A stretch of DNA of 64,000 nucleotides, from the NCBI GenBank assembly GCA_014729135.1, contig WJKK01000001.1, positions 260,588 to 324,587 on the forward strand. The letters are read 5' to 3'. Each line of letters starts with the position of its first letter. The first letter of the stretch is position 1. This document shows positions 1,968 through 59,450 of the stretch, piece by piece. Both the position numbers and the translations under genes were made by a program. The notes under the pieces are model-generated. The model did not search any database, was not told the origin of the DNA, and saw only the letters and a list, made by a program, of their open reading frames with translations. This DNA is from a candidate division WWE3 bacterium (GTDB lineage: Bacteria; Patescibacteriota; WWE3; UBA101185; UBA10185).

Positions 1968-2939
1968 ATGAAAATCTTAATCACAGGAGCCGCAGGCTTC
2001 ATAGGATCCAACTTTGCCGACTACTTTCTTAAAAATGACTATGAAGTTGTAGCCGTAGACAACTTTAATGACTTTTATAGTCCCAAAATAAAGGAATTTA
2101 ACATTTCCGAATTTAAAGATCACCCGAATTTCAAACTTTACCGAGTTGACATTTCAGATCGAGCCGCTTTGGAACCTGTTTTTTCCGAAAACACTGATAT
2201 AGATGCTGTAGTTCACTTGGCAGCTTGGGCCGGCGTAACTCAATCCGTTGAAAACCCCCATCAATATGTAAAGGACAACGTCTTGGGAACTAACAACTTA
2301 ACCGATTTTTGCATAAAATACGGAATCAACAACTTTATCTTTGCTTCAACTTCTTCTGTCTACGGGGACAACCCAACGCCCTTCACTGAAGACATGAACA
2401 CAAGCTTTCCAAATGCTCCCTATCCGGCAACAAAAAAATCCAGTGAGGTGCTGCTTTATACAATAAATAAAAATCAGGATCTAAATGTGACAATTTTTAG
2501 GTTTTTTAATCCTTTAGGGCCTCGAATGCGTCCGGATCTGGCGTTGCCTAAGCTAGTTAAATCTGTTGAATACGGCAAGGTTTTTGAGTTGTGGCAGGAC
2601 CCAACTTCAAGTGCGCGTGATTACACCTATATTGATGACATGGCACGTGCTGTTGAGGCTGTAATAAAGGAGCCTCAGGATTTTGTAATTATGAACCTTG
2701 GTAACTCCAATCCTATAAGTCTGCAGGATATGATTGAGACGGTGGAGGAAGTTACGGGAAAATCTGTTACAACAACGGAAAATTATTTGCCAGGTCAAAT
2801 GAAGGAAACTTTTGCGGATATTTCTAGGGCACGTGATCTGATTGGTTATGATCCCAAAACGACTTTAAAGGAGATGGTGGAATTTTATTACAATTGGTTT
2901 TTGCAGCAGCCGGAATGGTATAGAAAGGATGATTATTAG
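1968..2939 (+). CDS. NAD-dependent epimerase/dehydratase (UDP-sugar epimerase family)
   Basis: N-terminal Rossmann MKILITGAAGFIGSNFADYFL with GxxGxxG; 323 aa SDR extended family; upstream of a GT2 gene. Confidence 0.8.
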   Translation: MKILITGAAGFIGSNFADYFLKNDYEVVAVDNFNDFYSPKIKEFNISEFKDHPNFKLYRVDISDRAALEPVFSENTDIDAVVHLAAWAGVTQSVENPHQYVKDNVLGTNNLTDFCIKYGINNFIFASTSSVYGDNPTPFTEDMNTSFPNAPYPATKKSSEVLLYTINKNQDLNVTIFRFFNPLGPRMRPDLALPKLVKSVEYGKVFELWQDPTSSARDYTYIDDMARAVEAVIKEPQDFVIMNLGNSNPISLQDMIETVEEVTGKSVTTTENYLPGQMKETFADISRARDLIGYDPKTTLKEMVEFYYNWFLQQPEWYRKDDY

Positions 2940-8217: not shown

Positions 8218-10212
8218 TTGCTTTATTATGGCCAAGATATGTCGTTAAGTTCTAAAAATAATCATGATTTGATGCAGCAGGATTCGGCGAATTCTGAGGG
8301 GTCGGATTCGAAGATGCTAAGTTCTAAAGAAATTATTGAGAAATATTTAGATTTTTATAAGAAGCGGGATCATAAAGAGATTCCCAATGTTTCGCTGCTT
8401 CCTAAGGAGGACTCTACACTTTTGTTTGTTAATTCGGGGATGTTTCCGCTGGTGCCCTATTTAATGGGGGAGCCTCATCCTATGGGGACGCGTTTGGTGA
8501 ATGTGCAGCGTTGCATTCGTTTTGAGGATATTGAGGAGGTTGGTGATAATCGGCATACGACGGCTTTTCACATGTTGGGAAATTGGAGTTTGAATGATTA
8601 TTTTAAGGAGGAGCAGCTTCATTGGGTTTATGAGTTTTTTTGGGATGTTTTGAGGCTTAAACCGGAGAAGACTTTTGCTACGGTTTTTGGAGGACGTGAT
8701 GGTGCTTCCAAGGATGAGATTTCTGTTGAGATTTTGGAGGAGATTTTTCGGGGGAAGGGTTTGGAGCTTAAGGAAGGTGAGCGACTCTTTTATTTAGGGA
8801 GTAATTGGTGGCAACGTGGAGATGCTGTTGGGGAGCTTGGTGGCCCTGATAGTGAGGTTTTTTACTATGTTCCTTCTGAAGACTCTGCGTCTCGCCATTC
8901 CTCTCAGTCTCCTGATCATCCTGAACTTGATTCAGAATCCATGCCAAAATCAGCTCAAGACCTAGAAGAACGCGAAGACGAATTCATGGAAATTGGTAAC
9001 TCCGTGTTTTTGCAATACGTAAAAACGGAAGACGGCTGGGAACAAATGGAAATGCAAAATGTAGACTTTGGCGGCGGTTTAGAGCGCTTGGCCATGATGG
9101 TTCAAGAGAAAAGCGACATTTTTGAGACCGATAACTTTTGGCCGGTTATACAGCGTTTGCAAGAGCTGACAAAAAAGACTTATAAAGCAGATCCGGAAAC
9201 CACTCGTCACATGCGGATTATTGCCGATCACATCCGTGCTTCAGTGTTTCTAGCAATGGATGGCGTTTTGCCTTCTAACAAAGATCAGGGTTACATCTTG
9301 CGCCGGTTACTTCGTCGGATTGTTCGGTCAGGTAAAAGTTTAGGTCTAGAAAAGGACATTTCCGTTGAGTTGGTGGGAATTGTGGTTAAAATGTTTTCTT
9401 GGTTGTATCCCGATCTTACGGAAAAGCAGTCCTCGCTTGAGGCGCTTTTTGCAGAGGAGGAGGCGAAGTTTAGAAAGACTTTAAATCGCGCTTCACGGGA
9501 GGTTGAACGTTTTTTGGAGAAGTCTAGCGAAAAGGATTTAAGTGCAGAGAAGCTGGCAAAACAGGCCTTTACTTTCTATCAATCCATGGGTTATCCCGAG
9601 GAGATTTTCCTTGAAGACTTGCGCGAACATGGCGTTACTATTGATACAGCAGACTTCAAATCCCATTTTGACAAGCTAGAACAGCGTCACAAAGAAAAAT
9701 CCCGTAAAGGTGCTGCCAAAAAATTTGAAGGGGGTTTGGCTGCCCATAGCGAAACTACAATTAAGTATCATACTGCAACTCATCTTTTGCATACGGCTTT
9801 GCGGGCGGTTTTAGAAGCGGATTCTGAAACTGATGTGGCTCAAAAAGGGAGTAATATCACGGATGAGCGTTTGCGTTTTGACTTTTCGTTCACGCGAAAG
9901 CTGGAGGAGTCTGAGTTGAAAGAAGTGGAGGCCCTGGTTAATGATGTTATTGAAGCAGGTTTGCCGGTTAATTTTGAGGTTATGCCTTTGGAGGATGCTG
10001 TAGAAACGGGGGCTTTGCACTTTTTTGATGAGAAGTATGGGGATAAGGTAAAGGTTTATTATGTAGGTGAAACTTTGGAATCAGCTTTTAGCAAGGAGTT
10101 TTGTGGGGGGCCTCATGTGGAAAACACTTCTGAGCTTTTTCCAATTGAGATTTACAAGCAAAAGAAGATTGGTAAGGGAGTAATTCGTCTTTACGCTCGT
10201 TTTAAAGAGTAA
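8218..10212 (+). CDS. alaS: alanine--tRNA ligase, short form lacking the C-Ala domain; true start probably near 8314
   Basis: Class II AlaRS core (LLFVNSGM, VQRCIR, HTTAFHMLGNWS, DFGGGLERL, IADHIRAS, GYILRRLLRR) and editing-domain motifs (HTATHLLHTALR, CGGPHV); 664 aa. Confidence 0.85.
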   Translation: MLYYGQDMSLSSKNNHDLMQQDSANSEGSDSKMLSSKEIIEKYLDFYKKRDHKEIPNVSLLPKEDSTLLFVNSGMFPLVPYLMGEPHPMGTRLVNVQRCIRFEDIEEVGDNRHTTAFHMLGNWSLNDYFKEEQLHWVYEFFWDVLRLKPEKTFATVFGGRDGASKDEISVEILEEIFRGKGLELKEGERLFYLGSNWWQRGDAVGELGGPDSEVFYYVPSEDSASRHSSQSPDHPELDSESMPKSAQDLEEREDEFMEIGNSVFLQYVKTEDGWEQMEMQNVDFGGGLERLAMMVQEKSDIFETDNFWPVIQRLQELTKKTYKADPETTRHMRIIADHIRASVFLAMDGVLPSNKDQGYILRRLLRRIVRSGKSLGLEKDISVELVGIVVKMFSWLYPDLTEKQSSLEALFAEEEAKFRKTLNRASREVERFLEKSSEKDLSAEKLAKQAFTFYQSMGYPEEIFLEDLREHGVTIDTADFKSHFDKLEQRHKEKSRKGAAKKFEGGLAAHSETTIKYHTATHLLHTALRAVLEADSETDVAQKGSNITDERLRFDFSFTRKLEESELKEVEALVNDVIEAGLPVNFEVMPLEDAVETGALHFFDEKYGDKVKVYYVGETLESAFSKEFCGGPHVENTSELFPIEIYKQKKIGKGVIRLYARFKE

Positions 10213-22305: not shown

Positions 22306-25300
22306 ATGTCTAAAAATAGTGTTATTAAAAAATCGCCTTTGGCGCCAACTGTTCTTGTTGCCAATGGAATTTCCTTTCTTGGCCTTAATTTGTGCTCTGC
22401 TTTGCTTGATAAAGGTGCTCGAGTTGTTGTTATAGATCAAGTGGATGAGGAGGTTCGTTCTCGTGCAAAGAAGCTTTTGGCACATCCTAATTTTGCTTTG
22501 TTTAATGCGGATCCTGAGCAGGGGGTTCCCGACAAGATTCAATCTGTTGACTACATTTTTTCGCTGACGTATCCGGATGATTATACGCTGAAAAATCGTA
22601 ATTTGGTTTCGGAGGCTTTTGCTACTAAGAGTTTGCTGGATCTGGCTGTTAAGTCTAAGGCTCGTTTTGCTCTTGTGGAGCCGCTGTTTTATAAGAAGGT
22701 GTCTTCAAAGGAGGGGTCTCGGGGGAAGAGGTCTTCGTCGTTTTCACAGGCGGAAACTTTCTCTAGCCGTCATCCTGAACTTGATTCAGGATCCACCGCA
22801 CAAGACAACGATCAGGCAGGCTACACCTACAGAAAAAACAGCTCCTTTTTGCGGTCGCTAATTTGGGATTACATTGAAAATCGTAAACTGAATGGCCGCA
22901 TTATTCGTCTGCCCGTAATTTATGGTCCCGGCATGCCTTTGGAGTCTTCGATTGGATTAACTCGGTTTTTAAGCGCGCTTTTGCAAGGGAAGAACTTTAA
23001 AATTTTTGGAGACGGTGTTGCAAAAGGGCATTATTTGTATATTGATGAGGCTGTTGAGGGTATTATTAAGCCCTTGTTTTATAAGCGCACTTCAGGAAGG
23101 ATCTTTAAGGTTTTAGGCAGTGACTCTCATGCGGATTTGGAGTTGGCTTTTATTTTGAAGGGTTTGGCTAGTGGTGAGGTGAATTTGGAGTATGGTGAGG
23201 GGGGTTATGCGGAATTTGTTTTTGATACTTTTTTAGGGGAGGCAGTTCCTCGTTGGGAGCAGGAGGTTTCTTTAAAGGAGGGTTTGCAGCAAACCTTGGA
23301 AGGCTTTGGTTATGCGGTAAATGAGCATGCGTTTAAGCCTACAAAGGTGCTTGAGAATAAGTTGCGGGAACGTGAGGAGGTTGAGGCTATTAATTCTTTG
23401 TTGGGGTTGAAGCGCGATCAGGAGGAGGAGATTGCTTCGGGAGAGGTTGCGTATCCGGATGGTCTGGGAGTTTCTCTGCCTTCTTTACCTCGGCTGAGAT
23501 TGCCAAAAATAAAGCTGCCAAAGTTGAGTTTGCCGAAATTAGAGTTCCCGTTTTTCAAGGGAAGGATTCTCAAAGGAAGGTCAGCAAGGGTCAAAAAAAC
23601 CTCCGCAGTGAAATCCAAAAAGACGTCATCCCGGACCTCGACCCGGGAGCCTTCCCCAAAGGCAACCGGCTTCAAAAACGCCGGCTTTAATACAGCTCCT
23701 TCCAAAATCGGCACTGGCTTTAAAGGAACTTGGGTAGGCTATCTAATCACATTTTTAATCTTCATCTTCCTTTTCACACTGGGAGCTCCTTTAGGTCTAA
23801 CCGCCTACTCACTTAAAAAAGCAGCCACCTCTCTAGAAGAAGTTTCGCTTACAATGGCGCAATTGCAGACGAATACCTCCAAAGAATCTGCGGGAGACGC
23901 TTTTGCCAACTTGCATAAAGCTAAAAACTCCTTCAAGCGTTTAAGCTGGGTTTTTACAATCACCGGCCAAAAAGATACATACAAATCCTTGGATAACTTG
24001 TTGGACTCAGTCACCTATTTTACGGGCGCTTTATATCGCTCCTCTAAAGCCTTAGACCCCTTCAGCTCTACTTGGGATGTTCTCAACCCCAACTCCCCAG
24101 AGGTTTTTGCAACGGAAGACTTTGAAGCTAGTCGGCAAGAACTCTCCTATGCTCGCAACACGTTGGATCAGGCTTTGGCAAGCTTTAAGACAGTGCAGCG
24201 TGAAAATCTCCCAAAATTTGTGCAACCAAAATACGACGAATACGCCACTGTTTTGACTAAAGCGGATTCCTTCCTAAGAGATGCCTTGCTGCTTACCAGG
24301 GCGCTTCCCGACGTTGTAGGAGTAGATAGCGAAAAAGAGTATTTGCTGCTTTTACAAAACTCCAATGAGTTGCGCCCCACAGGAGGTTTTATAGGTTCGT
24401 ATGCAACCTTAAGCTTAAAAGAAGGAAAAATTCGCGAACTCACTTTAGATGACATTTATAATCCGGATGGCCAAATTGACAGTCGCGAGATTGTTTCAGA
24501 AATTCCCACGCCTTTAGCGGAATTTTTGGACGAGGAATACCTGCATATTAGAAATGCAAACTGGGATCCTGACTTTCCCACAAGTGTTGACCGTATAGAG
24601 GATCTCTTTTTTAAACTTGAAAATCGTACTTTTGATGGTGTTATAGCCCTAGATTTAAATTTCATTCAGTCGCTTTTGGATGTAACGGGTCCTGTCTTTT
24701 TGGCGGCTTATAACGAGGAAATAAATTCGGAAAATCTATATGAGCGCACGCAATATTACAGCGAGTTTGACTATCAAGAAGGGATTAGTGATAAGCGAGG
24801 CTTCTTGACGGTTTTAGGAAGCAAGCTTTTGGAGCAGGTTTTTGCGTTACCTTCAGAGGAGCTTCCGGAGTTTACTTCGCAAGTTTATCAAGCCTTAGAA
24901 GAGCGTCATCTGCTGGTTTCTTTGGATAATCCCACGATGTCTAACTTTTTGGCGGAGCGCAAGTGGGATGGGGCTATGGTGACTCCCGAGAAGGACTATT
25001 TAATGGTGGTGAACGCCAATTTGGGAGGTACTAAGGCGAACTATTTTGTGGAAAATTCTTATGATTATTCGGTTACGTCGGATACGCGTGATGGTTTGCT
25101 GCGGGCTCAGCTGGATTTGAGTTATAAGCACAATGGCCTTGATAATGCTTGGCCGGGCGGTCCTTATACTGATTATGCGCGTGTGTATGTTCCGCGAGGG
25201 GCTAAGCTTACGGGAGCAACTCAAAGTTTTGATAATGCTGTTCCGGAGAACGTCTTTGAGGAGGTTACGGCTTATGCAGAAGGAGATTATACGGTTTTTG

Positions 25301-25578
25301 CTTTTGATTTTGTTTTGGAGCCTCAGCAGGAGGCGCGTTTTGAGTTGAACTATGATTTGCCCGAAGCTTTGTCTTTTAGTAAGGAGAGCAAGGAGTATGC
25401 GCTGTATTGGCAGAAGCAACCGGGAACTAGTGAGGATGTTTTTAGGTTTGATTTTAAAGGACCTTTTGGAACTGAGATTGTTTCTTACAGCCCTGCCGGA
25501 GTGGTTAAGGAGAAGAATATTGCTGCTTATGAAGGTCTTTTGCAGTCGGACCAATCTGTTGACCTGGTGCTGAAATAG
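22306..25578 (+). CDS. large fusion protein: degenerate SDR/epimerase-like N-domain, basic LPKL-repeat linker, one TM helix, DUF4012-like extracytoplasmic domain
   Basis: N-terminal Rossmann-like domain with a degenerate GxxGxxG (VLVANGISFLGLNL); LPKIKLPKLSLPKLEFP repeats; TM GTWVGYLITFLIFIFLF; NSNELRPTGGFIGSYA motif recalled as a DUF4012 hallmark. Confidence 0.5.
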   Translation: MSKNSVIKKSPLAPTVLVANGISFLGLNLCSALLDKGARVVVIDQVDEEVRSRAKKLLAHPNFALFNADPEQGVPDKIQSVDYIFSLTYPDDYTLKNRNLVSEAFATKSLLDLAVKSKARFALVEPLFYKKVSSKEGSRGKRSSSFSQAETFSSRHPELDSGSTAQDNDQAGYTYRKNSSFLRSLIWDYIENRKLNGRIIRLPVIYGPGMPLESSIGLTRFLSALLQGKNFKIFGDGVAKGHYLYIDEAVEGIIKPLFYKRTSGRIFKVLGSDSHADLELAFILKGLASGEVNLEYGEGGYAEFVFDTFLGEAVPRWEQEVSLKEGLQQTLEGFGYAVNEHAFKPTKVLENKLREREEVEAINSLLGLKRDQEEEIASGEVAYPDGLGVSLPSLPRLRLPKIKLPKLSLPKLEFPFFKGRILKGRSARVKKTSAVKSKKTSSRTSTREPSPKATGFKNAGFNTAPSKIGTGFKGTWVGYLITFLIFIFLFTLGAPLGLTAYSLKKAATSLEEVSLTMAQLQTNTSKESAGDAFANLHKAKNSFKRLSWVFTITGQKDTYKSLDNLLDSVTYFTGALYRSSKALDPFSSTWDVLNPNSPEVFATEDFEASRQELSYARNTLDQALASFKTVQRENLPKFVQPKYDEYATVLTKADSFLRDALLLTRALPDVVGVDSEKEYLLLLQNSNELRPTGGFIGSYATLSLKEGKIRELTLDDIYNPDGQIDSREIVSEIPTPLAEFLDEEYLHIRNANWDPDFPTSVDRIEDLFFKLENRTFDGVIALDLNFIQSLLDVTGPVFLAAYNEEINSENLYERTQYYSEFDYQEGISDKRGFLTVLGSKLLEQVFALPSEELPEFTSQVYQALEERHLLVSLDNPTMSNFLAERKWDGAMVTPEKDYLMVVNANLGGTKANYFVENSYDYSVTSDTRDGLLRAQLDLSYKHNGLDNAWPGGPYTDYARVYVPRGAKLTGATQSFDNAVPENVFEEVTAYAEGDYTVFAFDFVLEPQQEARFELNYDLPEALSFSKESKEYALYWQKQPGTSEDVFRFDFKGPFGTEIVSYSPAGVVKEKNIAAYEGLLQSDQSVDLVLK

Positions 25579-28922: not shown

Positions 28923-29864
28923 ATGCACATCATGCAATCCCCCATTTGGGAACAATTTAAAAACGCATACGGAACCACTGCAATTCGCGTAGAAAACACA
29001 CTCTACACAAAACACAGGATTCCCTTTACCAACAGCTACTATGCCTACTGTCCCAAAGCAGACCCTTTTAAAATAAACTTTGATGTCCTTCGCAAATCTC
29101 TAGCCCAAAACAACTGCATAGCTATAAACTTTGACGTTCCCAACATAGTCGACTCTTCCGAAGAGGCCTCAGAAGCCATGGAAATCTTTACAGAAGCCGG
29201 TTGTAAAAAGGCTCCTCGTGACACTTTTACTCCCTACAACCTAATCCTTGATTTAACCCCCTCCAAAGAAGATCTTTTAAAAAACATGCACTCAAAACAG
29301 CGTTATAACGTTCGCTACGCCAAAAGAAAAGGTGTAGAAGTGCGCGAAGAATTCGGCAAAAAAGCTTTTGAAATTTTTTACGATTTGGCTATAAAAACGG
29401 CGGAGCGACAGGGTTTTTACATTCATCCAAAAACTTACTACGAAAAAATGTGGGAAACTTTAGGCAATGAAGGTGTAGCTCATATTTTAAACGCTTACTA
29501 CAAAGATGAACCGCTAGCTTCTTGGATGTTTTTTGTTTATGACGAGGTTTTGTACTACCCTTATGGGGGTTCTGCTGCTAAATTGCGTAACCTTCAAGCC
29601 AGCACTTTAGTTGGTTGGGAAGGTATGCTTTTAGGTAAGCGCTTGGGTTGTAAGACTTTTGATTTGTGGGGAGCTTGCGAAGATCCCAATGACCGCAGTG
29701 ATCCTGAGTGGGGCTTTACCCATTTTAAGCAAAAGTTTGGGGCTAAGCATGTGAAATACATTCCTTCTTATGATTTGGTTTTGAATCCCTTTTTATACGA
29801 GAGTTTTAACTTTGCTAACAGAGCTCGTTGGACAGTGTTAAATTTTAAAAAGCAGTTTTCTTAG
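28923..29864 (+). CDS. FemAB-family aminoacyl-tRNA-dependent peptidyltransferase (FemX-like)
   Basis: N-terminal QSPIWEQFK start and C-terminal FTHFKQKFGAKHVKY resemble FemAB/lipid II:glycine glycyltransferase family ends; paralog of the next gene. Confidence 0.6.
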   Translation: MHIMQSPIWEQFKNAYGTTAIRVENTLYTKHRIPFTNSYYAYCPKADPFKINFDVLRKSLAQNNCIAINFDVPNIVDSSEEASEAMEIFTEAGCKKAPRDTFTPYNLILDLTPSKEDLLKNMHSKQRYNVRYAKRKGVEVREEFGKKAFEIFYDLAIKTAERQGFYIHPKTYYEKMWETLGNEGVAHILNAYYKDEPLASWMFFVYDEVLYYPYGGSAAKLRNLQASTLVGWEGMLLGKRLGCKTFDLWGACEDPNDRSDPEWGFTHFKQKFGAKHVKYIPSYDLVLNPFLYESFNFANRARWTVLNFKKQFS

Positions 29865-30850: not shown

Positions 30851-33763
30851 TTAGCCCTTCCAAACTTTGGGGCAGATGTCCTTGTAATCACACCACCTGC
30901 AATGATAACCCGGGTCAGCTTCAAACCCGCCTTCTTTAATATTTGCAATAATCTCCTTTGTTTCCTCCCTCACACTCTCAATATCCTCCTCCGTACGTGT
31001 CGTACTAACCCTTTCTCCTGCCTCCACAAAATGCAGTGTCATCTTTTGCGGATCAAGTCCCAATGCCTCCTTAGCCCCTAAAGCATAAAAAGTCACCTGC
31101 TTGTCCTTATCAACATCCTTTTGGCTTTTTAACTTGCCTGTCTTATAGTCAATAATTTCAACACCCTGCGAATTCCCTGACTCTTCGGAACCCAACCGAT
31201 CAATCCGGTCAATACGTCCATAAAACCTAATCCCATCAATCTTAATATTAAACGACTTCTCCAACCCCAAAGGTTTCTGCCCCTTATCAACCTCCTCATA
31301 ATAATTTTGCAACAAATTCTCTCCCGCTTTAAAACGCTCCCGACGATGTTCTTCATTTAAATAACCCAAAGGCTCCCAATTTTTCTCATAAATTTCCATC
31401 AAATCCTCCAAAGAAACCTCCTCAAACAAAAGCTTCTCATGAAACTCCTTTAACGTCTCATGAATTGTAATTCCAAAACTTAACGCATGACTTGGCAGCG
31501 TTGGAACATGCAAAATATATTTGTACTTATACTGAAGGGGACAAGTTTCATACGTTGAAATTTGCGTATAACTTAAAAAGCTTGGTGTAAAATTTGAAAT
31601 CTTTTTTAGCGCCGGCTCCCGATAAGAAGAATTAACGCCAAACAAACTTTCCTGCTTCTCCTTTTGATCCCGCTCCATAACCACCTCCTGCGTTTCCAGA
31701 CCCGCCTCCTCCAAAAACCCACTAGGACGCTTTTCACGAGTACCTCCATAATCCTTTGCATACGCCATATACAGATACTTTTTCGCCCGCGTCATTCCCA
31801 CATAAAACAAACGACGCTCCTCTTGAATATGCGCATTGCCTTCAGGAAGCGTCTCCTTAATTAGGTCATCGGGAATTTCAATTTTATCGCTTCTATTTCG
31901 CGTAGGAAAACGGCTTGCCACCAAATTCACCATAAAAATCACCGGAAACTCCAGCCCCTTGGAAGCATGCACCGTCAGCAAATTAATCGTGTCAATATCC
32001 TCAATTTCAGCCTGCGCCGGATTATCTCCCGCCTCAATAAGCATCTCCATATGCTCCACAAAATCCACTAACGTAGGAATCTCTCCCGTATCCCGATTAA
32101 ACTGCACTTCAAACTTTTTCACCTTGTCCAAAAACAGGTCCATGTTTTTAATGCATAGCTGATTTTGGATAGTATCTTCCTCCAGAAACTGCTCCACATA
32201 GCCAATTTCACTTACAAGATTGTAAATCAGTTCCACCGGAGTCTTTTTTGCAATTTCCTGCCGATATTTATTGGTTAGCTCTTTAAAATTTTGTAGCCCT
32301 GCATTCTTGGAAGCTTTCACCGCCTCCCATAGGTCAATTTTTTTAAACTTGGCTGTTGAAAGCGTTTTAGCAACTGTCTCCTTATTAATGCCTGTTCCAT
32401 CAACCCCCAAAGTCTCAATATTTAGAGCTCGATATAGGCTTATAGCATCGTTAGGGTCTATCAAAGTTTTAACTAAAGCCATAATATCGCGGACTTCATT
32501 ACGATCATAAAGACCTCGATTTCCCACCAGCTGGTAAGGCAGTTTATATTTTCGTAGCGCTAAAACAAAAGGATCCAAATGGTTATTGGCACGCGCTAAA
32601 ATTGCAAAGTCTTTATAGGTGTATTGCGGCTCTTTTCCTAAAATCTCAATAATTTTTGTAATCACAAAATCCACTTCATCTTCTGCTGTCTCCACCTCAA
32701 TAACTTGCGGTTTTTGGTTGGTTTGTTTAATTTGGCTAACAAGCTCTTTTGAAATTCCCAGCTTGGTTTCCAGCGTATCGGGATTATTGTTTTGCACAAC
32801 TTTGTAAGCTGCATCCAAAATGTCCTGTTCTGATCGGTAGTTTTTTAGAAGCGTTACCATTTCCGCATTTGGGTAATCGTCTTTAAATTGGAGAATGTTG
32901 GAGATTGCTGCTCCCCGAAATTTGTAGATTGATTGGGAGTCGTCTCCCACTACGGTTAGGGATCTTTCTGTGGTGTTTTTGTTTGCTTTTTCGGTAGGGA
33001 ACAGAAGTTTAATAAGTTCATATTGCGCATAGTTAGTGTCTTGAAACTCGTCTACTAAAATGTGCTTAAATTTTTTACGATAGTTTTCCAAGATGTTTGG
33101 GCGTTCTTTAAAAAGTTTTATAGTCCAGGTGATTAAATCGCCAAAATCCATTTTTGATTCTTGAATTTTAATTTCCTGGTAAGTTTTGTAAATTTTTACC
33201 AGCTCTTGCCAGCGCTCTTTTTCTTCTTTTTCGGGGAATTCCTTTGTTTCCACATAGTTTTTTAACTCTTCCGGTGAGATGTTTTCATCTTGAAGGCGTG
33301 AAATAAACTTTAAAATTGCGGATATAAACTTAGTCGGATTGCCTAAGGGAAGGTAATATTTCAGGTTCATGGAGAAGATGTTTTTCCTAAGGAGCATCCA
33401 TTGTTCAGGGTAGGCGATGATTTTATAGGAGGGATCTAGGCCAATTTCCAGTGCTTCTTTTTTTAGGAGGCGATCACAAAAGGAGTGAAATGTGTAGATC
33501 CAGGGTTCTTCGTAGGCTAGGGGCATTGATTCTTGGGAGCGAAAGAGCATTTCTTCGGAGGCTTTTTCTGTGAATGTTAAAGCAAGGATTTGCATGGGGT
33601 CGATTTTGTCATGGTTTATAAGGGAGTTGATTTTTTCGGAAATGACGCGGGTTTTTCCGGTTCCGGCGCCTGCTACTACAATGAGGGGTCCTTGTTTGTG
33701 ATCTACCGCTTTTTGCTGGTTTTTATTAAGTGTGATTTTTTGATCTGCTTGTGGTGTTGGCAT
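30851..33763 (-). CDS. UvrD/PcrA-family SF1 helicase fused to a C-terminal Cas4/AddB-like PD-(D/E)XK nuclease with an Fe-S cysteine cluster
   Basis: Walker A VVAGAGTGKTRV; helicase motifs (TFH, VDEFQDTN, GDDSQSIYKFRGA); C-terminal YETCPLQYKYKY ... IDRIDRL ... IIDYKTGK ... CRWCDYKDICP. Confidence 0.8.
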   Translation of the reverse strand: MPTPQADQKITLNKNQQKAVDHKQGPLIVVAGAGTGKTRVISEKINSLINHDKIDPMQILALTFTEKASEEMLFRSQESMPLAYEEPWIYTFHSFCDRLLKKEALEIGLDPSYKIIAYPEQWMLLRKNIFSMNLKYYLPLGNPTKFISAILKFISRLQDENISPEELKNYVETKEFPEKEEKERWQELVKIYKTYQEIKIQESKMDFGDLITWTIKLFKERPNILENYRKKFKHILVDEFQDTNYAQYELIKLLFPTEKANKNTTERSLTVVGDDSQSIYKFRGAAISNILQFKDDYPNAEMVTLLKNYRSEQDILDAAYKVVQNNNPDTLETKLGISKELVSQIKQTNQKPQVIEVETAEDEVDFVITKIIEILGKEPQYTYKDFAILARANNHLDPFVLALRKYKLPYQLVGNRGLYDRNEVRDIMALVKTLIDPNDAISLYRALNIETLGVDGTGINKETVAKTLSTAKFKKIDLWEAVKASKNAGLQNFKELTNKYRQEIAKKTPVELIYNLVSEIGYVEQFLEEDTIQNQLCIKNMDLFLDKVKKFEVQFNRDTGEIPTLVDFVEHMEMLIEAGDNPAQAEIEDIDTINLLTVHASKGLEFPVIFMVNLVASRFPTRNRSDKIEIPDDLIKETLPEGNAHIQEERRLFYVGMTRAKKYLYMAYAKDYGGTREKRPSGFLEEAGLETQEVVMERDQKEKQESLFGVNSSYREPALKKISNFTPSFLSYTQISTYETCPLQYKYKYILHVPTLPSHALSFGITIHETLKEFHEKLLFEEVSLEDLMEIYEKNWEPLGYLNEEHRRERFKAGENLLQNYYEEVDKGQKPLGLEKSFNIKIDGIRFYGRIDRIDRLGSEESGNSQGVEIIDYKTGKLKSQKDVDKDKQVTFYALGAKEALGLDPQKMTLHFVEAGERVSTTRTEEDIESVREETKEIIANIKEGGFEADPGYHCRWCDYKDICPKVWKG

Positions 33764-34219: not shown

Positions 34220-35989
34220 ATGACAGAACCAAAAACATTCCCTGGTAAACCCAAAACCACCTGGAACTTAGACCTCATAGGCAACACAACCCTCCAAAAA
34301 GTTCAAAAAGAAGCCAAGAAATTCATCGAAAAATGGAAAAAGCGCAAAGATTACCTCCAAAAACCCTCCATATTAAAAGAAGCTCTGGATGACTACAACC
34401 AATGGGAGGAAAAATACTCCATGGGAGGCGATGAAGCCTACAAACTGATACTAAAACTCACACTTGATCAAAACAACGCAAAATTAAAAGCTCAATACAA
34501 CAAACTTCATGAAAAATACATTGAACTCTACAACTCACTCCAGTTTTTTATGCTAAACATCTCAAAAATTCCGCCAAAGGAACAGCCAAAATTCCTAAAA
34601 GCACCGGAGCTTGCAAAATACCGTTACTTTTTAAAAGGTCAGTTTGAAATAGCTAAATACCTGCTTACCGAAAAGGAAGAGCGAATTCTAAACTTAAAAT
34701 CAAAAGTAGCCTTTGGCAATTGGGTGGACATGACAGAAAATCTTATTTCAAAAGAAACTCGTGACGGCAAAAGTTTCTCCGAAATCCTATCTGAAACAAG
34801 CGACCCTAATAAATCCAAGCGGGATAAAGCAGCAAAATGGCTAAATGAAATCTTTGAAAATCACATTGATCCGGGGGAGCATGAGTTAAATTCGGTTTTA
34901 GAAAACGCCAAAATTAATCAAAAGTTGCGCGGTTATAAGCGCCCTGATGAGCCTCGGCACGTTGGCGATGACATAGAAACCGAAGTAGTAGATGCTTTGC
35001 TTACGGCGGTAACTTCTCGTTATGACATTTCGCAAAAGTTTTATGAGTTAAAGGCTAAGCTTTTGGGCTTTGAGCAGCTGGAATATCACGAGCGCAATGT
35101 GCCTTATGGCAAGGCCGAGAAGGAGTATGAGTTTGAAGATGCTTTGGCACTTGTAAATGAGACTTTTTATGATTTGGATCCCGAGTTTGCCCAGTATTTT
35201 CATAACTATTTTAAGCAAGGTCAATTTGATGCCTTCCCCAAAAAAGGAAAAAGTTCAGGTGCAGCTTGCTTTTCCGGTTTAAAAACCCAGCCGATTTATA
35301 TCTATTTAAACTTCACAAAAAAGCTTAGAAACGTTACTACAATAGCGCATGAGATGGGACATGCAATTCATAGCGAGTTGGTTTTTAAGTCGCAGCCGGC
35401 TATTTATGCAGGCACTTCTTTGGCAACGGCAGAAACGGCTAGCACTTTAATGGAGGATTTTGTTGTTCAACGGATTCTGCATGACGCCGATGATGAGTTG
35501 AAGCTGGCACTCCAAATGGAGCAGCTTAATGATTCGGTTTCTACAATTCAGCGTCAAATTGCTTGTTATAAGTTTGAGCAAGAGCTTCATGAGAGTTTTC
35601 GCAGGGAGGGCTATCTTTCCAAGGAGCAAATTGGGGAGCTTTTTCAAAAGCACATGGCTGCTTATATGGGGGATTTTGTGGAGCAGTCAAAGGGTTCGCA
35701 AAATTGGTGGCTTTATTGGAGTCATATTCGCCGTCACTTTTATGTTTATTCTTATGCCAGCGGGCTTTTAATTTCTAAGTCGCTGCAAAAGCGTGTTAAG
35801 GAGACTCCGGAGTTTATAAAGGAGGTTAAGGAGGTTTTAGCTTTAGGTACTTCAAAATCCCCTAAGGATGCGTTTTTGGAGATAGACATTGACATTTCTA
35901 ATCCTGATTTTTGGTTGCAGGGTTTAAAGGAGCAGTCGCAGCTTTTAGATGACACTTGGACATTAGCGGAAAAACTTGGCAAAATATAG
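34220..35989 (+). CDS. pepF: oligoendopeptidase F (M3B family)
   Basis: HEMGHAIH zinc motif; ~590 aa M3B architecture. Confidence 0.85.
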   Translation: MTEPKTFPGKPKTTWNLDLIGNTTLQKVQKEAKKFIEKWKKRKDYLQKPSILKEALDDYNQWEEKYSMGGDEAYKLILKLTLDQNNAKLKAQYNKLHEKYIELYNSLQFFMLNISKIPPKEQPKFLKAPELAKYRYFLKGQFEIAKYLLTEKEERILNLKSKVAFGNWVDMTENLISKETRDGKSFSEILSETSDPNKSKRDKAAKWLNEIFENHIDPGEHELNSVLENAKINQKLRGYKRPDEPRHVGDDIETEVVDALLTAVTSRYDISQKFYELKAKLLGFEQLEYHERNVPYGKAEKEYEFEDALALVNETFYDLDPEFAQYFHNYFKQGQFDAFPKKGKSSGAACFSGLKTQPIYIYLNFTKKLRNVTTIAHEMGHAIHSELVFKSQPAIYAGTSLATAETASTLMEDFVVQRILHDADDELKLALQMEQLNDSVSTIQRQIACYKFEQELHESFRREGYLSKEQIGELFQKHMAAYMGDFVEQSKGSQNWWLYWSHIRRHFYVYSYASGLLISKSLQKRVKETPEFIKEVKEVLALGTSKSPKDAFLEIDIDISNPDFWLQGLKEQSQLLDDTWTLAEKLGKI

Positions 35990-52177: not shown

Positions 52178-54826
52178 ATGCTAGAAAAAATATTTGGCGT
52201 AATCTTTGACACCAACGAAAAACAACTCAAAAAACTGCAACCTCTTGTGCAAAAAGTAAACTCCCATGAAAACGAAGTGCAAAATTGGTCAGCCCAAGAC
52301 TTTAAAGATCAGACAAAAAAATGGCAAGAACAACTGCAACAAAAACCCTACGAAAAACAGCAAGAAATCCTAAACCAAATACTCCCTAAAGCCTTTGCTG
52401 CAGCCAGAGAGGCTGCAAAAAGAACCGTAGAAATGCGCCCTTACGACGTACAGGTTTTAGCAGGAATCGTCCTCCATCAGGGAAAAATTGCCGAGCAAAA
52501 AACAGGAGAAGGAAAGACCCTAACAGCCACAATGCCTCTTTATCTAAACGCCCTAACCGGAAAAGGCTGCCACTTAGTCACTCCCAACGACTACTTATCC
52601 AGACACGGCGCAGGCTGGATGGGCTCCGTTTACAACTACCTAGGACTTTCCGTTGGCGTAATCATGCAGGAAAAAGCCTTCATCTACGACTCCGAATACG
52701 AAAACTCTACATTTCAAGACGAATACGCCAAGCATCTAAAAGAAGTTGATCGAAAAGAAGCCTACAAAGCCGACGTAACCTATGGAACAAATCACGAATT
52801 TGGCTTTGACTACCTTCGCGACAACATGAAACACAACTTAGAAGAACTCGTTCAAACCAATCCCAATGGAACCTTAGGCACACACAATTTTGCCATTGTT
52901 GACGAAGTAGACTCCATTTTAATTGACGTGGCACGAACGCCTCTAATAATTTCCACGTCATACTCGCAACCCACTTCTCGCTATCAGGAAGCCAACAATA
53001 TTGTTAAAGGGCTTTTAAAAGGAACCGACTATGAGGTGGATGAGAAGTATCGCAGCTCCACTCTAACCGAGTTAGGAATTCGCAAAGTGGAAAAACTTTT
53101 AGGTGTGGGGAATTTGTACGAGGAAGATTTTGAGATGGTGCATTTAATTGAGCAAGCTTTAATTGCAAATACGCTTTATGAAAAGGACACGGACTATGTG
53201 GTTAAGGATGGTCAGGTAGTTATTGTGGATCAGTTTACAGGGCGTTTGTTGCCAAGTAATCGCTATTCGCATGGGTTGCATCAGGCTATTGAGGCTAAAG
53301 AAGGAGTTGCTATTCAGGAAGAATCCCGTACGCTTGCGGAAATCTCGTATCAGAACTATTTTAGGATGTATTCAAAACTTGCCGGCATGACAGGTACTGC
53401 AGCAACGGAGGCGGAGGAGTTTAAAAAGATTTACGATCTTGACGTTGTTATTGTTCCGACGCATCGTCCTATTGCGCGAAAAGATCACAACGATGTGGTC
53501 TATAAAACTATTTCCGCTAAGTTTAAGGCAGTGGCGGATGAAATTGAGGAGCGTCACAACAAGGGTCAGCCGGTTTTGGTGGGTACGACTTCAGTTGAGA
53601 AGAGCCAACTTTTGCATAATTATTTGGTGCGAAAAAAGATTTCTCATGAGATTTTGAATGCTAAGAATCATGAGCGGGAGGCTTTAATTATTGCTCAGGC
53701 AGGTAAGCCGGGAGCAGTTACGGTTTCTACAAATATGGCCGGTCGAGGTGTGGACATTATTTTGGGAGGGGATCCTTCTACTGATGAGGAGCAGGAGAAG
53801 GTTAAGGAGTTGGGTGGTTTGCATGTTATTGGTACTGAGCGGCATGAGTCTCGCCGTATTGACAATCAGCTTAGAGGCCGTTCAGGGAGGCAGGGCGATC
53901 CGGGGTCTTCCAGGTTTTTTGTGTCTCTGCAGGATGATTTGATGCGAATTTTTGGAGGAGCTCGTGTGGAGGCGCTGATGAATCGTTTTGGGCTGGATGA
54001 GAATGTGCCTTTGGAAGCAGGAATGGTGAGTAAGGCCATTGAGAACGCGCAAAAGAAGGTGGAGGGTTTTAACTTTGACCGCCGTAAGAGTTTGGTGGAG
54101 ATGGATGACGTTATGAATGTGCATCGTGAGGTAGTTTATAAGTTGCGTCGTCGTATTTTGGAGCTTGCTTCTGGGGATGAGTCTCATGTGGATTGGTTTT
54201 TGCAGGAGCTTGCGGAGAAGGCTGGTTTTGATGCTGCGGTTTGGGAGGAGAAGAAGTCTTCGTTTGTTTCGGAGCATGGTTTGGGGCAGTGGCGGGAGGT
54301 TTTGAAGCAGTTGACTTTGCCGGTGGTGGATCTTTTGTGGATGGAGCATTTGGTGGATATGGATCAGCTGAAGGAGGGGATTGGTTTGCGGGGTTATGCG
54401 CAGCGGGATCCTATGGTGGAGTATAAAAAGGAGGGGCATGCGCGGTTTGAGGTTTTGGTTCGCAAGATTTATGCGTCTATTGCGGATCGGCTGGAGCGTT
54501 TTCGTGGGGCGGGTCGTGCAGAGGATTCGTCGGCTTTGTCGGGAGGTTCTCGAGGGGATGTTTTGGAGCGTAGTATGGCTCAGGCGCAGTATACGAAAGG
54601 GGATTTGGAGGCGGGGGTTTCTGATGAGGCTGCTTTGGTCCAGCAGGGGCGTGGGCCGGGTAGTTCCGGAGGTTCCGGTAGCTCTGATGACGGCTTGCGC
54701 GACAGGATAGGTCGCAATTTCAAGGTTAAAAAGGTCAGTGGATCTTCTTCAGAGGATGTAGGTAGAAACGATCCCTGCCCTTGTGGAAGCGGCAAAAAAT
54801 ACAAGTACTGCTGCGGCAAAAACTAA
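52178..54826 (+). CDS. secA: preprotein translocase ATPase SecA
   Basis: DEAD-motor motifs, preprotein cross-linking domain, C-terminal zinc finger CPCGSGKKYKYCCG; 882 aa. Confidence 0.95.
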   Translation: MLEKIFGVIFDTNEKQLKKLQPLVQKVNSHENEVQNWSAQDFKDQTKKWQEQLQQKPYEKQQEILNQILPKAFAAAREAAKRTVEMRPYDVQVLAGIVLHQGKIAEQKTGEGKTLTATMPLYLNALTGKGCHLVTPNDYLSRHGAGWMGSVYNYLGLSVGVIMQEKAFIYDSEYENSTFQDEYAKHLKEVDRKEAYKADVTYGTNHEFGFDYLRDNMKHNLEELVQTNPNGTLGTHNFAIVDEVDSILIDVARTPLIISTSYSQPTSRYQEANNIVKGLLKGTDYEVDEKYRSSTLTELGIRKVEKLLGVGNLYEEDFEMVHLIEQALIANTLYEKDTDYVVKDGQVVIVDQFTGRLLPSNRYSHGLHQAIEAKEGVAIQEESRTLAEISYQNYFRMYSKLAGMTGTAATEAEEFKKIYDLDVVIVPTHRPIARKDHNDVVYKTISAKFKAVADEIEERHNKGQPVLVGTTSVEKSQLLHNYLVRKKISHEILNAKNHEREALIIAQAGKPGAVTVSTNMAGRGVDIILGGDPSTDEEQEKVKELGGLHVIGTERHESRRIDNQLRGRSGRQGDPGSSRFFVSLQDDLMRIFGGARVEALMNRFGLDENVPLEAGMVSKAIENAQKKVEGFNFDRRKSLVEMDDVMNVHREVVYKLRRRILELASGDESHVDWFLQELAEKAGFDAAVWEEKKSSFVSEHGLGQWREVLKQLTLPVVDLLWMEHLVDMDQLKEGIGLRGYAQRDPMVEYKKEGHARFEVLVRKIYASIADRLERFRGAGRAEDSSALSGGSRGDVLERSMAQAQYTKGDLEAGVSDEAALVQQGRGPGSSGGSGSSDDGLRDRIGRNFKVKKVSGSSSEDVGRNDPCPCGSGKKYKYCCGKN

Positions 54827-54880: not shown

Positions 54881-55312
54881 ATGAAATTTACTAAAAAGTT
54901 TTATTTCAGCTTTGCCTTGCTCCTCACAGTTAGCGCTTTAAGTTACACTGCCTTTATCACATTCAGCCCACGCCTCTTAGCCAAAGTTTCCGAAAGCGTA
55001 AAAGGCACCTACATCCACAGCGAATTCTCCTACCTTCCCTCCATTGAAGACGCCACCGAAATCAGCGCCAACTACAAATCCGAAGGGTTTGAACGCTCCT
55101 TTGTAATGAGTCAATCCTGCGAAAACGTTCCCCAACGCTTCTATAAAAACGTATTAACTGCCGACGAATGGATTGCCGAAAAAACAGAAAGCAAAGAAAG
55201 CTACCAAGCCACCACCTACAAAAAAGGAACGCAAAAAATTAGAGTCGCCTCCTTTGATGATCCCGAAAAAGATGAATGTCTAATAACCCTAGTAGGCTAC
55301 CGCTCCGAATAA
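54881..55312 (+). CDS. hypothetical secreted protein
   Basis: N-terminal signal peptide/TM MKFTKKFYFSFALLLTVSALSYTAF; 143 aa. Confidence 0.4.
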   Translation: MKFTKKFYFSFALLLTVSALSYTAFITFSPRLLAKVSESVKGTYIHSEFSYLPSIEDATEISANYKSEGFERSFVMSQSCENVPQRFYKNVLTADEWIAEKTESKESYQATTYKKGTQKIRVASFDDPEKDECLITLVGYRSE

Positions 55313-57660: not shown

Positions 57661-57765
57661 TTTTTAAACCTTTCTTGTGAATAATTTTTAAAAGTCAGCC
57701 CCTAATTCACTTTTGTTTATAGGGCTGTTGGGGGTATTTTAACATGTGGGGGAGTTTTTTCTTTT

Positions 57766-58197: not shown

Positions 58198-58227
58198 GGG
58201 GTTAAAAGCTTTGTATGCTTTTGTACT

Positions 58228-59445: not shown

Positions 59446-59450
59446 ATCAA

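What the first reader, a model, noticed from the sequence alone, without database searches (positions are those of the whole stretch)
8884..9000. 25-nt near-identical in-frame insert shared by alaS and the DUF4012-like fusion gene
catcctgaacttgattcagaatcca (8917-8941, alaS) and catcctgaacttgattcaggatcca (22771-22795, in the 22306..25578 gene) are identical at 24 of 25 positions. Both encode HPELDS(E/G)S inside longer low-complexity, Ser/Asp/Glu-rich inserts. The flanks are also related (tct-c/a-gcc-a/g-t upstream, caagac downstream). Both inserts are C/A-rich, unlike the G/T-rich host coding style. In AlaRS the insert sits in the surface loop between the FYY and (E)IGNxVF motifs. In the epimerase-like domain it sits just before the YxxxK catalytic position. 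This suggests a small mobile in-frame element, gene conversion, or a shared targeting or epitope module.
Basis: seen in the sequence. Interest (0 to 1): 0.6.

Follow-up and report, generated by a model that had tools for sequence, protein, structure and literature searches.

The report
Hairpin DNA repeat inside two genes
The shared 25-mer is two copies of a known small DNA hairpin repeat (a CGTC-tagged REP, the motif recognised by Ssn single-strand nucleases) that occurs base-for-base in bacteria of many phyla and here sits in frame in tolerant loops of two genes, so it is an ordinary new example of a known kind.

Summary
8916-8941 and 22770-22795 match at 25 of 26 bases, with none expected by chance. 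The interpretation needs correcting. The two copies are not copies of each other, and they are not a protein module. Each is a solo copy of a dispersed 28-nt DNA hairpin: head CGTC, 8-bp stem ATCCTGAA/TTCAGGAT, loop CTTGA, tail CCA.

The hits span at least 15 phyla and are mostly intergenic. The anatomy fits the CGTC-tagged REPs of Di Nocera et al. 2013. It also fits the NTS/SRM motifs that flank ssn genes, which encode single-domain GIY-YIG ssDNA endonucleases (Chenal et al. 2025). I reproduced that association independently: 71 of 80 ssn loci are bracketed by such hairpins.

None of 120 AlaRS relatives has the 19-aa insert, which AlphaFold models as a low-confidence loop. A Berkelbacteria AlaRS carries the same hairpin, in the same frame, at a different site. 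The copy in the 22306..25578 gene is intact; the alaS copy is decayed. A third, degenerate remnant lies at 23624-23652.

In-frame REPs in genes are already known (Rickettsia RPEs, aaRS genes). One thing is unexplained: the two sharpest codon-style switches in the window fall exactly at the two copies.

The parts
22768..22795 (+). Intact CGTC-tagged REP / Ssn-related hairpin. Head CGTC 22768-22771, 5' stem ATCCTGAA 22772-22779, loop CTTGA 22780-22784, 3' stem TTCAGGAT 22785-22792, tail CCA 22793-22795. Read in frame as R155-HPELDSGS-T.
   Evidence: Sequence. Identical to the consensus of 147 copies in 120 loci of other genomes. Perfect 8-bp hairpin, -6.4 kcal/mol as ssDNA, z -3.7. Fits the CGTC REP anatomy quoted.
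8914..8941 (+). Decayed copy of the same hairpin in alaS. Head GATC instead of CGTC (8914-8917), 5' stem 8918-8925, loop CTTGA 8926-8930, 3' stem TTCAGAAT 8931-8938 (a G>A change breaks one pair), tail CCA 8939-8941. Read as D233-HPELDSES. A half-site-like GTCTCCTGA abuts it at 8907-8915.
   Evidence: The hairpin is weakened to 5 bp, -2.9 kcal/mol, z -0.4. Upstream half-sites (GTCATCC within 50 nt) occur at 16 of 147 copies elsewhere.
8896..8952 (+). Lineage-specific 57-nt (19-aa) insertion in AlaRS, HSSQSPDHPELDSESMPKS (residues 227-245 of the ORF that starts at 8218). It contains the hairpin. The exact gap placement is uncertain by a few codons.
   Evidence: Absent from all 25 aligned orthologues (A2). 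No REP-type peptide occurs in any of the 120 best homologues. In the AlphaFold model, residues 224-231 and 234-241 have pLDDT below 50 and lie between strands 211-217 and 256-270.
8314..10212 (+). alaS (alanine--tRNA ligase), the host gene. The ORF is listed from 8218, but orthologues align from Met33, which is 8314.
   Evidence: Pfam tRNA-synt_2c 1.2e-101 and tRNA_SAD. Best relatives are candidate division WWE3 and other Patescibacteria, at most 69% identity.
22705..22795 (+). Region of the epimerase-like domain that holds about 66 extra nt (22 aa) relative to homologues, including the intact hairpin. The aligner places the gap at residues 134-155, but the placement is ambiguous.
   Evidence: Alignment A3 with 8 homologues, the nearest at 37% identity.
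23624..23652 (+). Third, degenerate CGTC-REP/SRM-like remnant of a different stem class, CGTCATCCCGGACCTCGACCCGGGAGCCT. It lies in the linker of the same gene and is read in another frame (SSRTSTREP).
   Evidence: Matches the published SRM search pattern. 24 of 29 bases match L119 without gaps and 23 of 29 match L089. It is one of only two GTCAT-headed hairpins in the window with a perfect stem of at least 6 bp.
22306..25578 (+). Host gene 2: a 1090-aa fusion of an NAD-epimerase-like domain and DUF4012.
   Evidence: Pfam Epimerase 1.9e-10 and DUF4012 3.8e-26. ORF.

Best explanation
The shared 25-mer is the core of two independent solo copies of a dispersed 28-nt DNA hairpin repeat of the CGTC-tagged REP family, also described as NTS/SRM, the Ssn-related motif. 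Its parts are an unpaired head CGTC, an 8-bp stem beginning AT, the loop CTTGA and the tail CCA. Across bacteria the same sequence occurs mostly between genes, and inverted copies bracket the genes of Ssn nucleases. Ssn nucleases are 95-aa single-domain GIY-YIG enzymes that bind the hairpin on one strand of single-stranded DNA and cut a few bases upstream.

In this candidate-division WWE3 (Patescibacteria) genome, each copy entered a coding region as part of a 57-66-nt insertion. Each survived for three reasons: its length is a multiple of three, it is read in one of the three stop-free frames of the motif (HPELDSGS), and it lies in a loop that tolerates extra residues. At the protein level the copies are most likely neutral decorations. 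At the DNA level the intact copy at 22768-22795 is still a potential Ssn binding and cleavage site whenever the + strand is single-stranded. The alaS copy has lost its head and part of its stem.

Shown: the family identity, the hairpin anatomy and covariation, the Ssn-gene association, the lineage-specific inserts and the loop location. Inferred: that insertion happened by the family's own spreading process through ssDNA, that Ssn drives it, and that this genome encodes an Ssn at all.
For: The loci come from at least 15 phyla, including eight Patescibacteria lineages. The copies share only the unit YGTCATCCTGAACTTGATTCAGGATC[CT] and have unrelated flanks.

Selecting sites only on head GTCAT, loop CTTGA and tail ATC, 25 of 38 distinct 6-nt inner stems are perfectly complementary.

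The anatomy equals the published description of CGTC REPs: CGTC or TGTC tag, 8-9-bp stem starting AT, 4-5-nt loop, CCA tail, with in-frame intragenic copies including aaRS genes (PMC3733652).

A recurrent neighbour in the motif-selected loci is a stand-alone GIY-YIG ORF. In 80 metagenome loci chosen only by that protein, 71 have such hairpins within 200 nt. Upstream hairpins are 65 '+' against 14 '-'; downstream hairpins are 63 '-' against 20 '+'. Density is 4.8 per kb near the gene against 0.30 per kb further away. This reproduces Chenal et al. 2025 (PMC11893778).

The exact variant of the finding brackets ssn genes in L076, L081, L106 and L108, and lies at the gene's start in L085, a CPR genome.

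The inserts are private to this lineage. The AlaRS insert is a low-confidence loop. A Berkelbacteria AlaRS (L099) carries SRHPELDSGS at another site, within an 18-aa insertion.
Against: No ssn gene lies in the 64-kb window (hmmsearch). The rest of the genome could not be found: the AlaRS search returned nothing above 69% identity and the exact GroEL sequence is not on record. No WWE3-labelled Ssn was among the top 120 homologues.

The published degenerate SRM pattern does not match this stem/loop variant.

Only 28 of the 57-66 inserted nucleotides are accounted for by the hairpin, and no target-site duplication is visible.

Mobility of CGTC REPs/SRMs has never been shown experimentally, and GIY-YIG nucleases are not known to catalyse transposition (PMC11893778 discussion).

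All copies in the window are intragenic, whereas only about 6% are elsewhere.
Confidence: 0.8

Rival explanations
1. The hairpins mark the edges of recombination or repair patches. Each REP arrived with, or later triggered replacement of, the DNA just downstream of it, for example by homologous recombination with foreign DNA or by nick-initiated resynthesis from an Ssn cut. Under this reading the hairpins are landmarks of mosaic genes rather than simple insertions. This would add to the main explanation rather than replace it.
For: The two largest step-downs of third-position G+T among 15,505 intragenic positions of the window lie at nt 22753 and nt 8935, which is at the two copies. Upstream codons end in G/T (0.9) and downstream codons end in A/C (0.35-0.45). 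In alaS the downstream style continues about 150 nt into conserved coding sequence. NTS/dRS3 repeats are linked to recombination and transformation in Neisseria (PMC11893778).
Against: The nearest AlaRS orthologues are the same on both sides of the hairpin, although relatives are only about 70% identical, so the test is weak. The nine intragenic copies in other genomes show no consistent step. Low third-position G+T also occurs at many gene starts in this window where there is no hairpin.
Confidence: 0.15
2. One gene's insert was copied into the other by direct gene conversion or duplication.
For: 24 of 25 bases are identical, with the same strand and the same reading frame.
Against: Identity ends exactly at the limits of a repeat family present in at least 120 other genomic loci. 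The flanks are unrelated. The copy in the 22306..25578 gene equals the family consensus, so no donor inside the window is needed.
Confidence: 0.04
3. HPELDS(E/G)S is a peptide module, such as a targeting signal, an epitope or a linear motif, kept by selection on the proteins.
For: The same frame is used in both window genes and in the AlaRS of L099 and the ORFs of L117 and L061.
Against: Most copies are non-coding. Intragenic copies use the opposite-strand frame LNQVQDD as often (5 against 4). The stem covaries to keep base pairs, not amino acids. In AlaRS the segment is modelled with pLDDT below 50, and the alaS copy has drifted (R to D, G to E).
Confidence: 0.03
4. The sequence is a classical GTAG-type REP/REPIN or an IS200/IS605-derived hairpin mobilised by a Y1 HUH transposase (RAYT).
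For: The general look is similar: a short hairpin with an unpaired 5' tag, often in inverted pairs that form MITE-like units.
Against: The tag is CGTC/TGTC, not GTAG. The only recurrent neighbouring gene that abuts or is bracketed by the hairpins is a GIY-YIG nuclease, not a Y1 transposase. Di Nocera et al. found no RAYT for CGTC REPs.
Confidence: 0.04

Closest known systems
CGTC-tagged REPs (Di Nocera, De Gregorio & Rocco 2013, BMC Genomics 14:522). By the paper's description, the closest are the families with an 8-bp stem and a 5-nt loop.
   Same: Unpaired head CGTC or TGTC, 8-bp stem whose first two pairs are A-T, 5-nt loop, CCA tail. High copy number and mostly intergenic, with some copies in frame inside genes encoding 8-30 extra residues, including aaRS, truB and dnaE2 (for example RHPGLDPGS in E. 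litoralis dnaE2).
   Different: That survey found them in five phyla, mostly Alphaproteobacteria, and mostly as head-to-head dimers. Here the host is a WWE3 (Patescibacteria) genome, the copies are solo, and all three in the window are intragenic. I could not see the paper's figure with the family consensus sequences, so assignment to a numbered family rests on the text description only.
NTS / Ssn-related motifs (SRM) and the Ssn family of single-domain GIY-YIG ssDNA endonucleases (Chenal et al. 2025, Nat Commun 16:2388). The Neisseria dRS3/NTS repeat is the type case.
   Same: The same head (CGTCAT), the same hairpin-plus-tail layout and the same directionality. The exact variant of the finding lies beside ssn genes and brackets them in inverted orientation in other genomes, including a CPR genome.
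   Different: The stem is A/T-richer and the loop is CTTGA rather than GMAV. The published degenerate search pattern does not match it. No ssn gene lies in the window. NTS copies are only 2% intragenic in N. meningitidis. The known biological role, lowering transformation in Neisseria, is untested outside that genus.
Rickettsia palindromic elements (RPE; Ogata et al. 2000). RPE-4 and RPE-6 are CGTC REPs according to Di Nocera et al.
   Same: Palindromic selfish DNA inserted in frame into protein-coding genes, adding surface-loop peptides without destroying the protein.
   Different: The classical RPE-1 is 100-150 bp and specific to Rickettsia. Here the recognisable unit is 28 nt within 57-66 nt of extra sequence, and the host is a free-living or episymbiotic CPR bacterium.
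GTAG REPs / REPINs with RAYT (TnpA-REP) transposases
   Same: The same logic: a short tagged hairpin repeat plus a single-copy gene for a ssDNA-hairpin-specific nuclease, bracketed by inverted copies (a REPtron-like layout).
   Different: A different tag (GTAG) and a different enzyme superfamily (HUH Y1 transposase, not GIY-YIG).

Membership tests
CGTC-tagged REP (Di Nocera 2013) | Unpaired 5' tag CGTC (variants TGTC, CCTC) | tested here: met
   22768-22771 is CGTC. The alaS copy has GATC and so fails this feature on its own. Most of the 147 copies elsewhere have CGTC or TGTC.
CGTC-tagged REP (Di Nocera 2013) | Stem of 8-9 bp beginning with complementary A-T at positions 1 and 2; loop of 4-5 nt | tested here: met
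   ATCCTGAA / CTTGA / TTCAGGAT. The 8-bp stem is perfect in the copy at 22768-22795 and has one broken pair in alaS.
CGTC-tagged REP (Di Nocera 2013) | Short unpaired tail, consensus CCA | tested here: met
   CCA at 22793-22795 and at 8939-8941.
CGTC-tagged REP (Di Nocera 2013) | Many dispersed copies within one genome, often as head-to-head dimers | not testable with these tools
   Only 64 kb of this genome is available. It holds 2 copies plus 1 remnant, all solo. The genome was not found in the collections. Other genomes show several copies per 8 kb, including inverted pairs.
Ssn-related motif (SRM; Chenal 2025) | Matches the published degenerate search sequence HGTCWYN(0-2)YYVSBRHN(0-5)WNVSBRGN(0-2)RNCYNB | tested here: not met
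   Neither copy matches, and neither does the cross-phylum consensus. The canonical NTS and the remnant at 23624 do match. The pattern is a search tool built from 29 genomes, not a functional definition.
Ssn-related motif (SRM; Chenal 2025) | Copies flank ssn (single-domain GIY-YIG, cd10448-type) genes in inverted orientation | tested here: met
   The exact variant brackets GIY-YIG ORFs in L076, L081, L106 and L108 and lies at the start of the one in L085. The family-wide association was reproduced in 71 of 80 loci.
Ssn-related motif (SRM; Chenal 2025) | A cognate ssn gene is present in the same genome | tested here: inconclusive
   None among the ORFs of at least 50 aa in the window. The rest of the genome is unavailable. 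Ssn homologues are common in other CPR lineages.
Ssn-related motif (SRM; Chenal 2025) | Strand-specific binding and cleavage of the ssDNA form by Ssn, a few nt upstream of the motif | not testable with these tools
   This needs a biochemical assay. Only the predicted ssDNA hairpin stability could be computed.
GTAG REP / REPIN-RAYT | GTAG tag and an associated Y1 HUH transposase gene | tested here: not met
   The tag is CGTC. The recurrent neighbour that abuts or is bracketed by the hairpins is GIY-YIG, and no Y1-transposase cluster was seen among 2003 ORFs of 120 loci. The Y1 family was not searched with its own profile.
Rickettsia palindromic element (in-frame selfish DNA) | Palindromic repeat inserted in frame in a conserved gene and absent from orthologues | tested here: met
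   Alignments A2, A3 and A6. This is membership in the phenomenon, not in the Rickettsia-specific RPE-1 sequence family.

The most novel reading that the evidence does not exclude
In this genome the hairpins are active, polar DNA-level elements rather than inert passengers. Cleavage or stalling at the motif on the coding strand would restart repair synthesis or recombination downstream. That would explain why the two sharpest switches in the window, from G/T-ending to A/C-ending codons, fall exactly at the two copies. Together with the independent insertion of the same hairpin at a second site of AlaRS in another CPR lineage, this would be natural evidence that Ssn-type repeats both move into new sites and locally reshape mutation or recombination in host genes.
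Probability: 0.12. Interest if true: 0.6.

Novelty: new member of a known kind. Interest (0 to 1): 0.3.

Why it matters
The result removes an apparent oddity. The shared in-frame insert is neither a new kind of mobile protein module nor a gene-conversion event. It is a known hairpin repeat family caught inside genes.

It adds some small points of record:
- The CCTGAA/CTTGA variant is conserved to the base across at least 15 phyla, including several Patescibacteria lineages.
- The published SRM search pattern misses this variant, even though it brackets ssn genes.
- It has entered AlaRS independently at two different sites in two CPR lineages.

Private insertions like these are indirect evidence that CGTC REPs/SRMs do reach new sites, which has not been shown experimentally. 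For annotation, peptides such as HPELDSGS, ILNQVQDD, VIPAKAGI and SFPRKRES in otherwise conserved proteins should be read as REP-derived.

Tried and rejected
- **Rfam on six loci with the repeat:** only sub-threshold microRNA-like hits caused by the long inverted pairs. No known RNA family.
- **Full-text search for the raw sequence:** no paper prints it.
- **Longer shared element around the core:** pairwise alignment and 8-mer sharing between the window flanks and the flanks of 147 other copies found nothing beyond chance. The unit is the 26-28-nt hairpin, not the whole 57-66-nt insert.
- **Target-site duplications:** by eye, nothing longer than 3 nt at the aligned insert boundaries, and those boundaries are themselves ambiguous.
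- **Second, inverted partner in the window (REPIN or MITE form):** none within 3 mismatches.
- **ssn gene in the window:** none. The Pfam scan of 64 window ORFs prints only the top 25 of 106 families, so it cannot exclude a transposase.
- **Locating the source genome:** the AlaRS search gave nothing above 69% identity, and the exact GroEL sequence is not on record.
- **A dedicated Ssn clade for the CTTGA-loop class:** rejected. Ssn identity within and between hairpin classes is alike (0.54, 0.60 and 0.56), the nearest neighbour is of the same class in only 30 of 65 cases, and 13 genes are flanked by both classes.
- **Foreign recombination patch in alaS:** no change of nearest orthologues across the hairpin.
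- **Generality of the codon-style step:** not seen consistently at nine intragenic copies in other genomes.
Full report
**1.

The two 25-mers are at the stated coordinates on the + strand and differ at one base. With one more base the match is 25 of 26, 8916-8941 against 22770-22795. No other repeat in the window comes close. Shuffles gave zero matches even with three mismatches allowed.

Both copies lie in ORFs and are read in the same frame. One ORF is alaS (Pfam tRNA-synt_2c, 1.2e-101). The other is a 1090-aa fusion of an epimerase-like domain and DUF4012. By its AlaRS relatives the window comes from a candidate division WWE3 / Patescibacteria genome. The best hit is only 69% identical, and neither this AlaRS nor the exact GroEL sequence is on record in the collections.

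**2. The sequence is not private to these two genes**

My estimate of the chance expectation is about one (596 Gb, two strands, 4^20).

The record titles cover these groups:
- Bacteroidota
- Alpha-, Gamma- and Deltaproteobacteria
- Campylobacterota
- Spirochaetota
- Elusimicrobiota
- Chloroflexota
- Nitrospirota
- Armatimonadota
- Melainabacteria
- Margulisbacteria
- Actinomycetota
- Babeliales
- Rhodothermota/Balneolales
- eight Patescibacteria lineages (WWE3, Kazan, Roizman-, Moran-, Berkel-, Sacchari-, Gracili- and Parcubacteria)

The list includes cultured isolates. The copies share only the unit YG-TCATCCTGAACTTGATTCAG-GATC(C/T), and the DNA on either side is unrelated. Some copies form inverted pairs 100-140 nt apart, like MITEs. 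Others form tandem arrays or sit next to hairpins with the same head, loop and tail but a different stem.

The unit is itself a hairpin. When sites are selected only on head GTCAT, loop CTTGA and tail ATC, 25 of 38 distinct inner 6-nt stems are perfectly complementary. The chance for each is 1 in 4096. So base pairing, not sequence, is what is kept in the stem.

**3. What it is**

The anatomy is CGTC | ATCCTGAA | CTTGA | TTCAGGAT | CCA. This is word for word the description of CGTC-tagged REPs by Di Nocera et al. 2013: a CGTC or TGTC tag, a stem of 8-9 bp starting with two A-T pairs, a loop of 4-5 nt and a CCA tail (PMC3733652).

That paper already lists in-frame intragenic copies encoding 8-30 residues. 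They include aminoacyl-tRNA synthetases, truB and dnaE2, and it equates Rickettsia RPE-4 and RPE-6 with this family. It reported no dedicated transposase.

Looking for one, I clustered all ORFs of the 120 loci. One recurrent cluster abutted or was bracketed by the hairpins: a 95-aa protein that Pfam calls a stand-alone GIY-YIG catalytic domain.

I then fetched 80 metagenome loci chosen only by that protein. Of these, 71 have CGTC/TGTC hairpins within 200 nt of the gene. Upstream copies point one way (65 against 14) and downstream copies point the other (63 against 20). Density is 4.8 per kb near the gene and 0.30 per kb further out.

This association turned out to be published. Chenal et al. 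2025 named the protein family Ssn and the repeats NTS (in Neisseria, equal to dRS3) or SRM. They showed that SsnA binds the hairpin strand-specifically on single-stranded DNA and cuts a few nucleotides upstream. It has no activity on dsDNA or RNA, and in N. meningitidis it lowers transformation by NTS-flanked DNA (PMC11893778). My result is therefore an independent replication, not a discovery.

The exact variant of the finding brackets ssn genes in L076, L081, L106 and L108. It lies at the start of the ssn gene in L085, which is a Moranbacteria (CPR) genome. The authors' degenerate search pattern does not match this A/T-richer stem with its CTTGA loop.

**4. The inserts are lineage-specific and sit in tolerant loops**

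In an alignment with 25 orthologues, the window AlaRS alone has 19 extra residues, HSSQSPDHPELDSESMPKS (nt 8896-8952), between the FYY strand and EIGNSVF. None of the 120 best homologues contains any REP-type peptide.

An AlphaFold model (mean pLDDT 78) gives pLDDT below 50 for residues 224-231 and 234-241. That is the insert, which lies between two confident strands.

The epimerase-like domain has about 22 extra residues at the hairpin relative to eight homologues. The nearest is only 37% identical and the gap placement is ambiguous.

Elsewhere, 9 of the 147 copies lie inside long ORFs. Four use the frame HPELDS and five use the opposite-strand frame LNQVQDD. One of the nine is another AlaRS, from a Berkelbacteria genome (L099). 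It has SRHPELDSGS within an 18-aa insertion about 70 residues downstream of the window's site. That is an independent insertion into the same enzyme. Others are a truB with a REP dimer and an ORF whose sequence resembles a cysteine desulfurase, which I judged by eye and did not scan.

**5. State of the copies**

- **Copy at 22768-22795:** equals the consensus and folds as a perfect 8-bp ssDNA hairpin (-6.4 kcal/mol, z -3.7).
- **alaS copy:** has GATC for CGTC and a G-to-A change in the 3' arm, and folds weakly (-2.9 kcal/mol, z -0.4). It looks older or disabled.
- **Third remnant at 23624-23652:** CGTCATCCCGGACCTCGACCCGGGAGCCT, a degenerate copy of a different stem class. It lies in the linker of the same gene and is read in another frame. 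It matches the published SRM pattern and 24 of 29 bases of a copy in L119.

**6. How it most likely works**

These points are shown:
- The shared sequence is a member of the CGTC-REP/SRM hairpin family.
- The family is structure-constrained and travels with ssn genes.
- The window copies are private insertions in loops.

These points are inferred:
- The copies arrived by the family's own, still uncharacterised, spreading process. That process presumably goes through single-stranded DNA and involves an Ssn nuclease encoded elsewhere in this genome or in an ancestor.
- They persist because they are a multiple of three long, fall in one of the three stop-free frames of the motif, and sit where extra residues do no harm.

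I found no evidence for any function of the peptide.

**7. Rival explanations**

Direct gene conversion between the two genes, a selected peptide module, and a classical GTAG-REP/RAYT element each fail specific tests. Identity stops at the family consensus. Conservation is at the DNA level and independent of frame. The tag and the associated enzyme are the wrong ones.

I also tested whether the CTTGA-loop class has its own Ssn clade. It does not. Ssn similarity does not sort by hairpin class, and many ssn genes are flanked by both classes.

**8. One thing remains unexplained**

Third codon positions in this window are strongly and patchily G/T-biased on the coding strand of both orientations. 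Values reach 0.9-0.98. They often rise from about 0.2-0.3 at the start of a long gene to about 0.7-0.98 further in.

Among 15,505 intragenic positions, the two largest step-downs (30 codons before against 30 codons after) are at nt 22753 and nt 8935, which is at the two hairpins. In alaS the A/C-ending style continues about 150 nt into conserved sequence before recovering.

The nearest AlaRS orthologues do not change across the hairpin. Intragenic copies in other genomes show no consistent step. I therefore cannot say whether this reflects young DNA brought in with the repeat, a polar repair or recombination effect of the hairpin, or coincidence.

**9. Verdict**

The kind is known (CGTC-tagged REP = Ssn-related motif; in-frame REPs as in Rickettsia). 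These are new members in a new host lineage. Interest is modest.

Noticed in passing
window, all genes; sharpest at 8935 and 22753; gradients in 30851-33763(-), 34220-35989(+), 52178-54826(+), 28923-29864(+), 1968-2939(+): Third codon positions are extremely and patchily G/T-rich on the coding strand of both orientations. Many long genes rise from about 0.2-0.3 at the 5' end to about 0.7-0.98 further in. groES, the ORF at 54881-55312 and several short genes at 57130-59969 stay at 0.23-0.51. The two largest intragenic step-downs in the window coincide with the two hairpin copies. No explanation was found.
   Followed up: partly
window 23624-23652 (+): A third, degenerate CGTC-REP/SRM-like remnant of another stem class lies inside the same fusion gene, translated as SSRTSTREP in the linker before the DUF4012 part. 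It matches the published SRM pattern and 24 of 29 bases of a copy in L119.
   Followed up: yes
window 22306-23400 (+), residues 1-365: The epimerase-like domain looks catalytically degenerate. The Gly-rich NAD motif reads NGISFLG where homologues have GGAGFIG. The STS(E) catalytic-Ser segment reads VEP. The family's YxxxK Lys aligns two residues off. The nearest homologue (P0121, 37% identity) keeps the Gly motif (alignment A3).
   Followed up: partly
L099 3037-4980 (+) (Candidatus Berkelbacteria, JAPLVK010000015.1): A second CPR AlaRS carries the same hairpin in the same frame (SRHPELDSGS), within an 18-aa insertion at a different site. It also has other private insertions, for example after MLGNFSF and around SACHPDLAEGS.
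   Followed up: partly
L015, L027, L031, L041, L044, L055, L120 and others; window 8907-8915: A partial copy of the head and 5' arm (GTCATCCTGAAC) often lies upstream of a full hairpin. GTCATCC occurs within 50 nt upstream at 16 of 147 copies, and in the examples read by eye the gap is roughly 8-15 nt. The alaS copy has a similar GTCTCCTGA abutting it. The meaning is unknown.
   Followed up: no
Published SRM search pattern against window 22768-22795 and loci L076, L081, L106, L108: The degenerate SRM pattern of Chenal et al. 2025 does not match hairpins with the CTTGA loop and stems such as CCTGAA or TCCGGG, although these bracket ssn genes. Published SRM counts may therefore undercount this class.
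   Followed up: partly
window 9800-9830 (+), AlaRS residues about 529-532: The window AlaRS has a second small private insertion (ADSE, in LEADSETDVAQ) that is absent from all 25 aligned orthologues. It has no hairpin signature.
   Followed up: no
window 8218-8313 (+): The alaS ORF extends 32 codons upstream of the Met where all orthologues begin, from a TTG. The true start is probably 8314.
   Followed up: no
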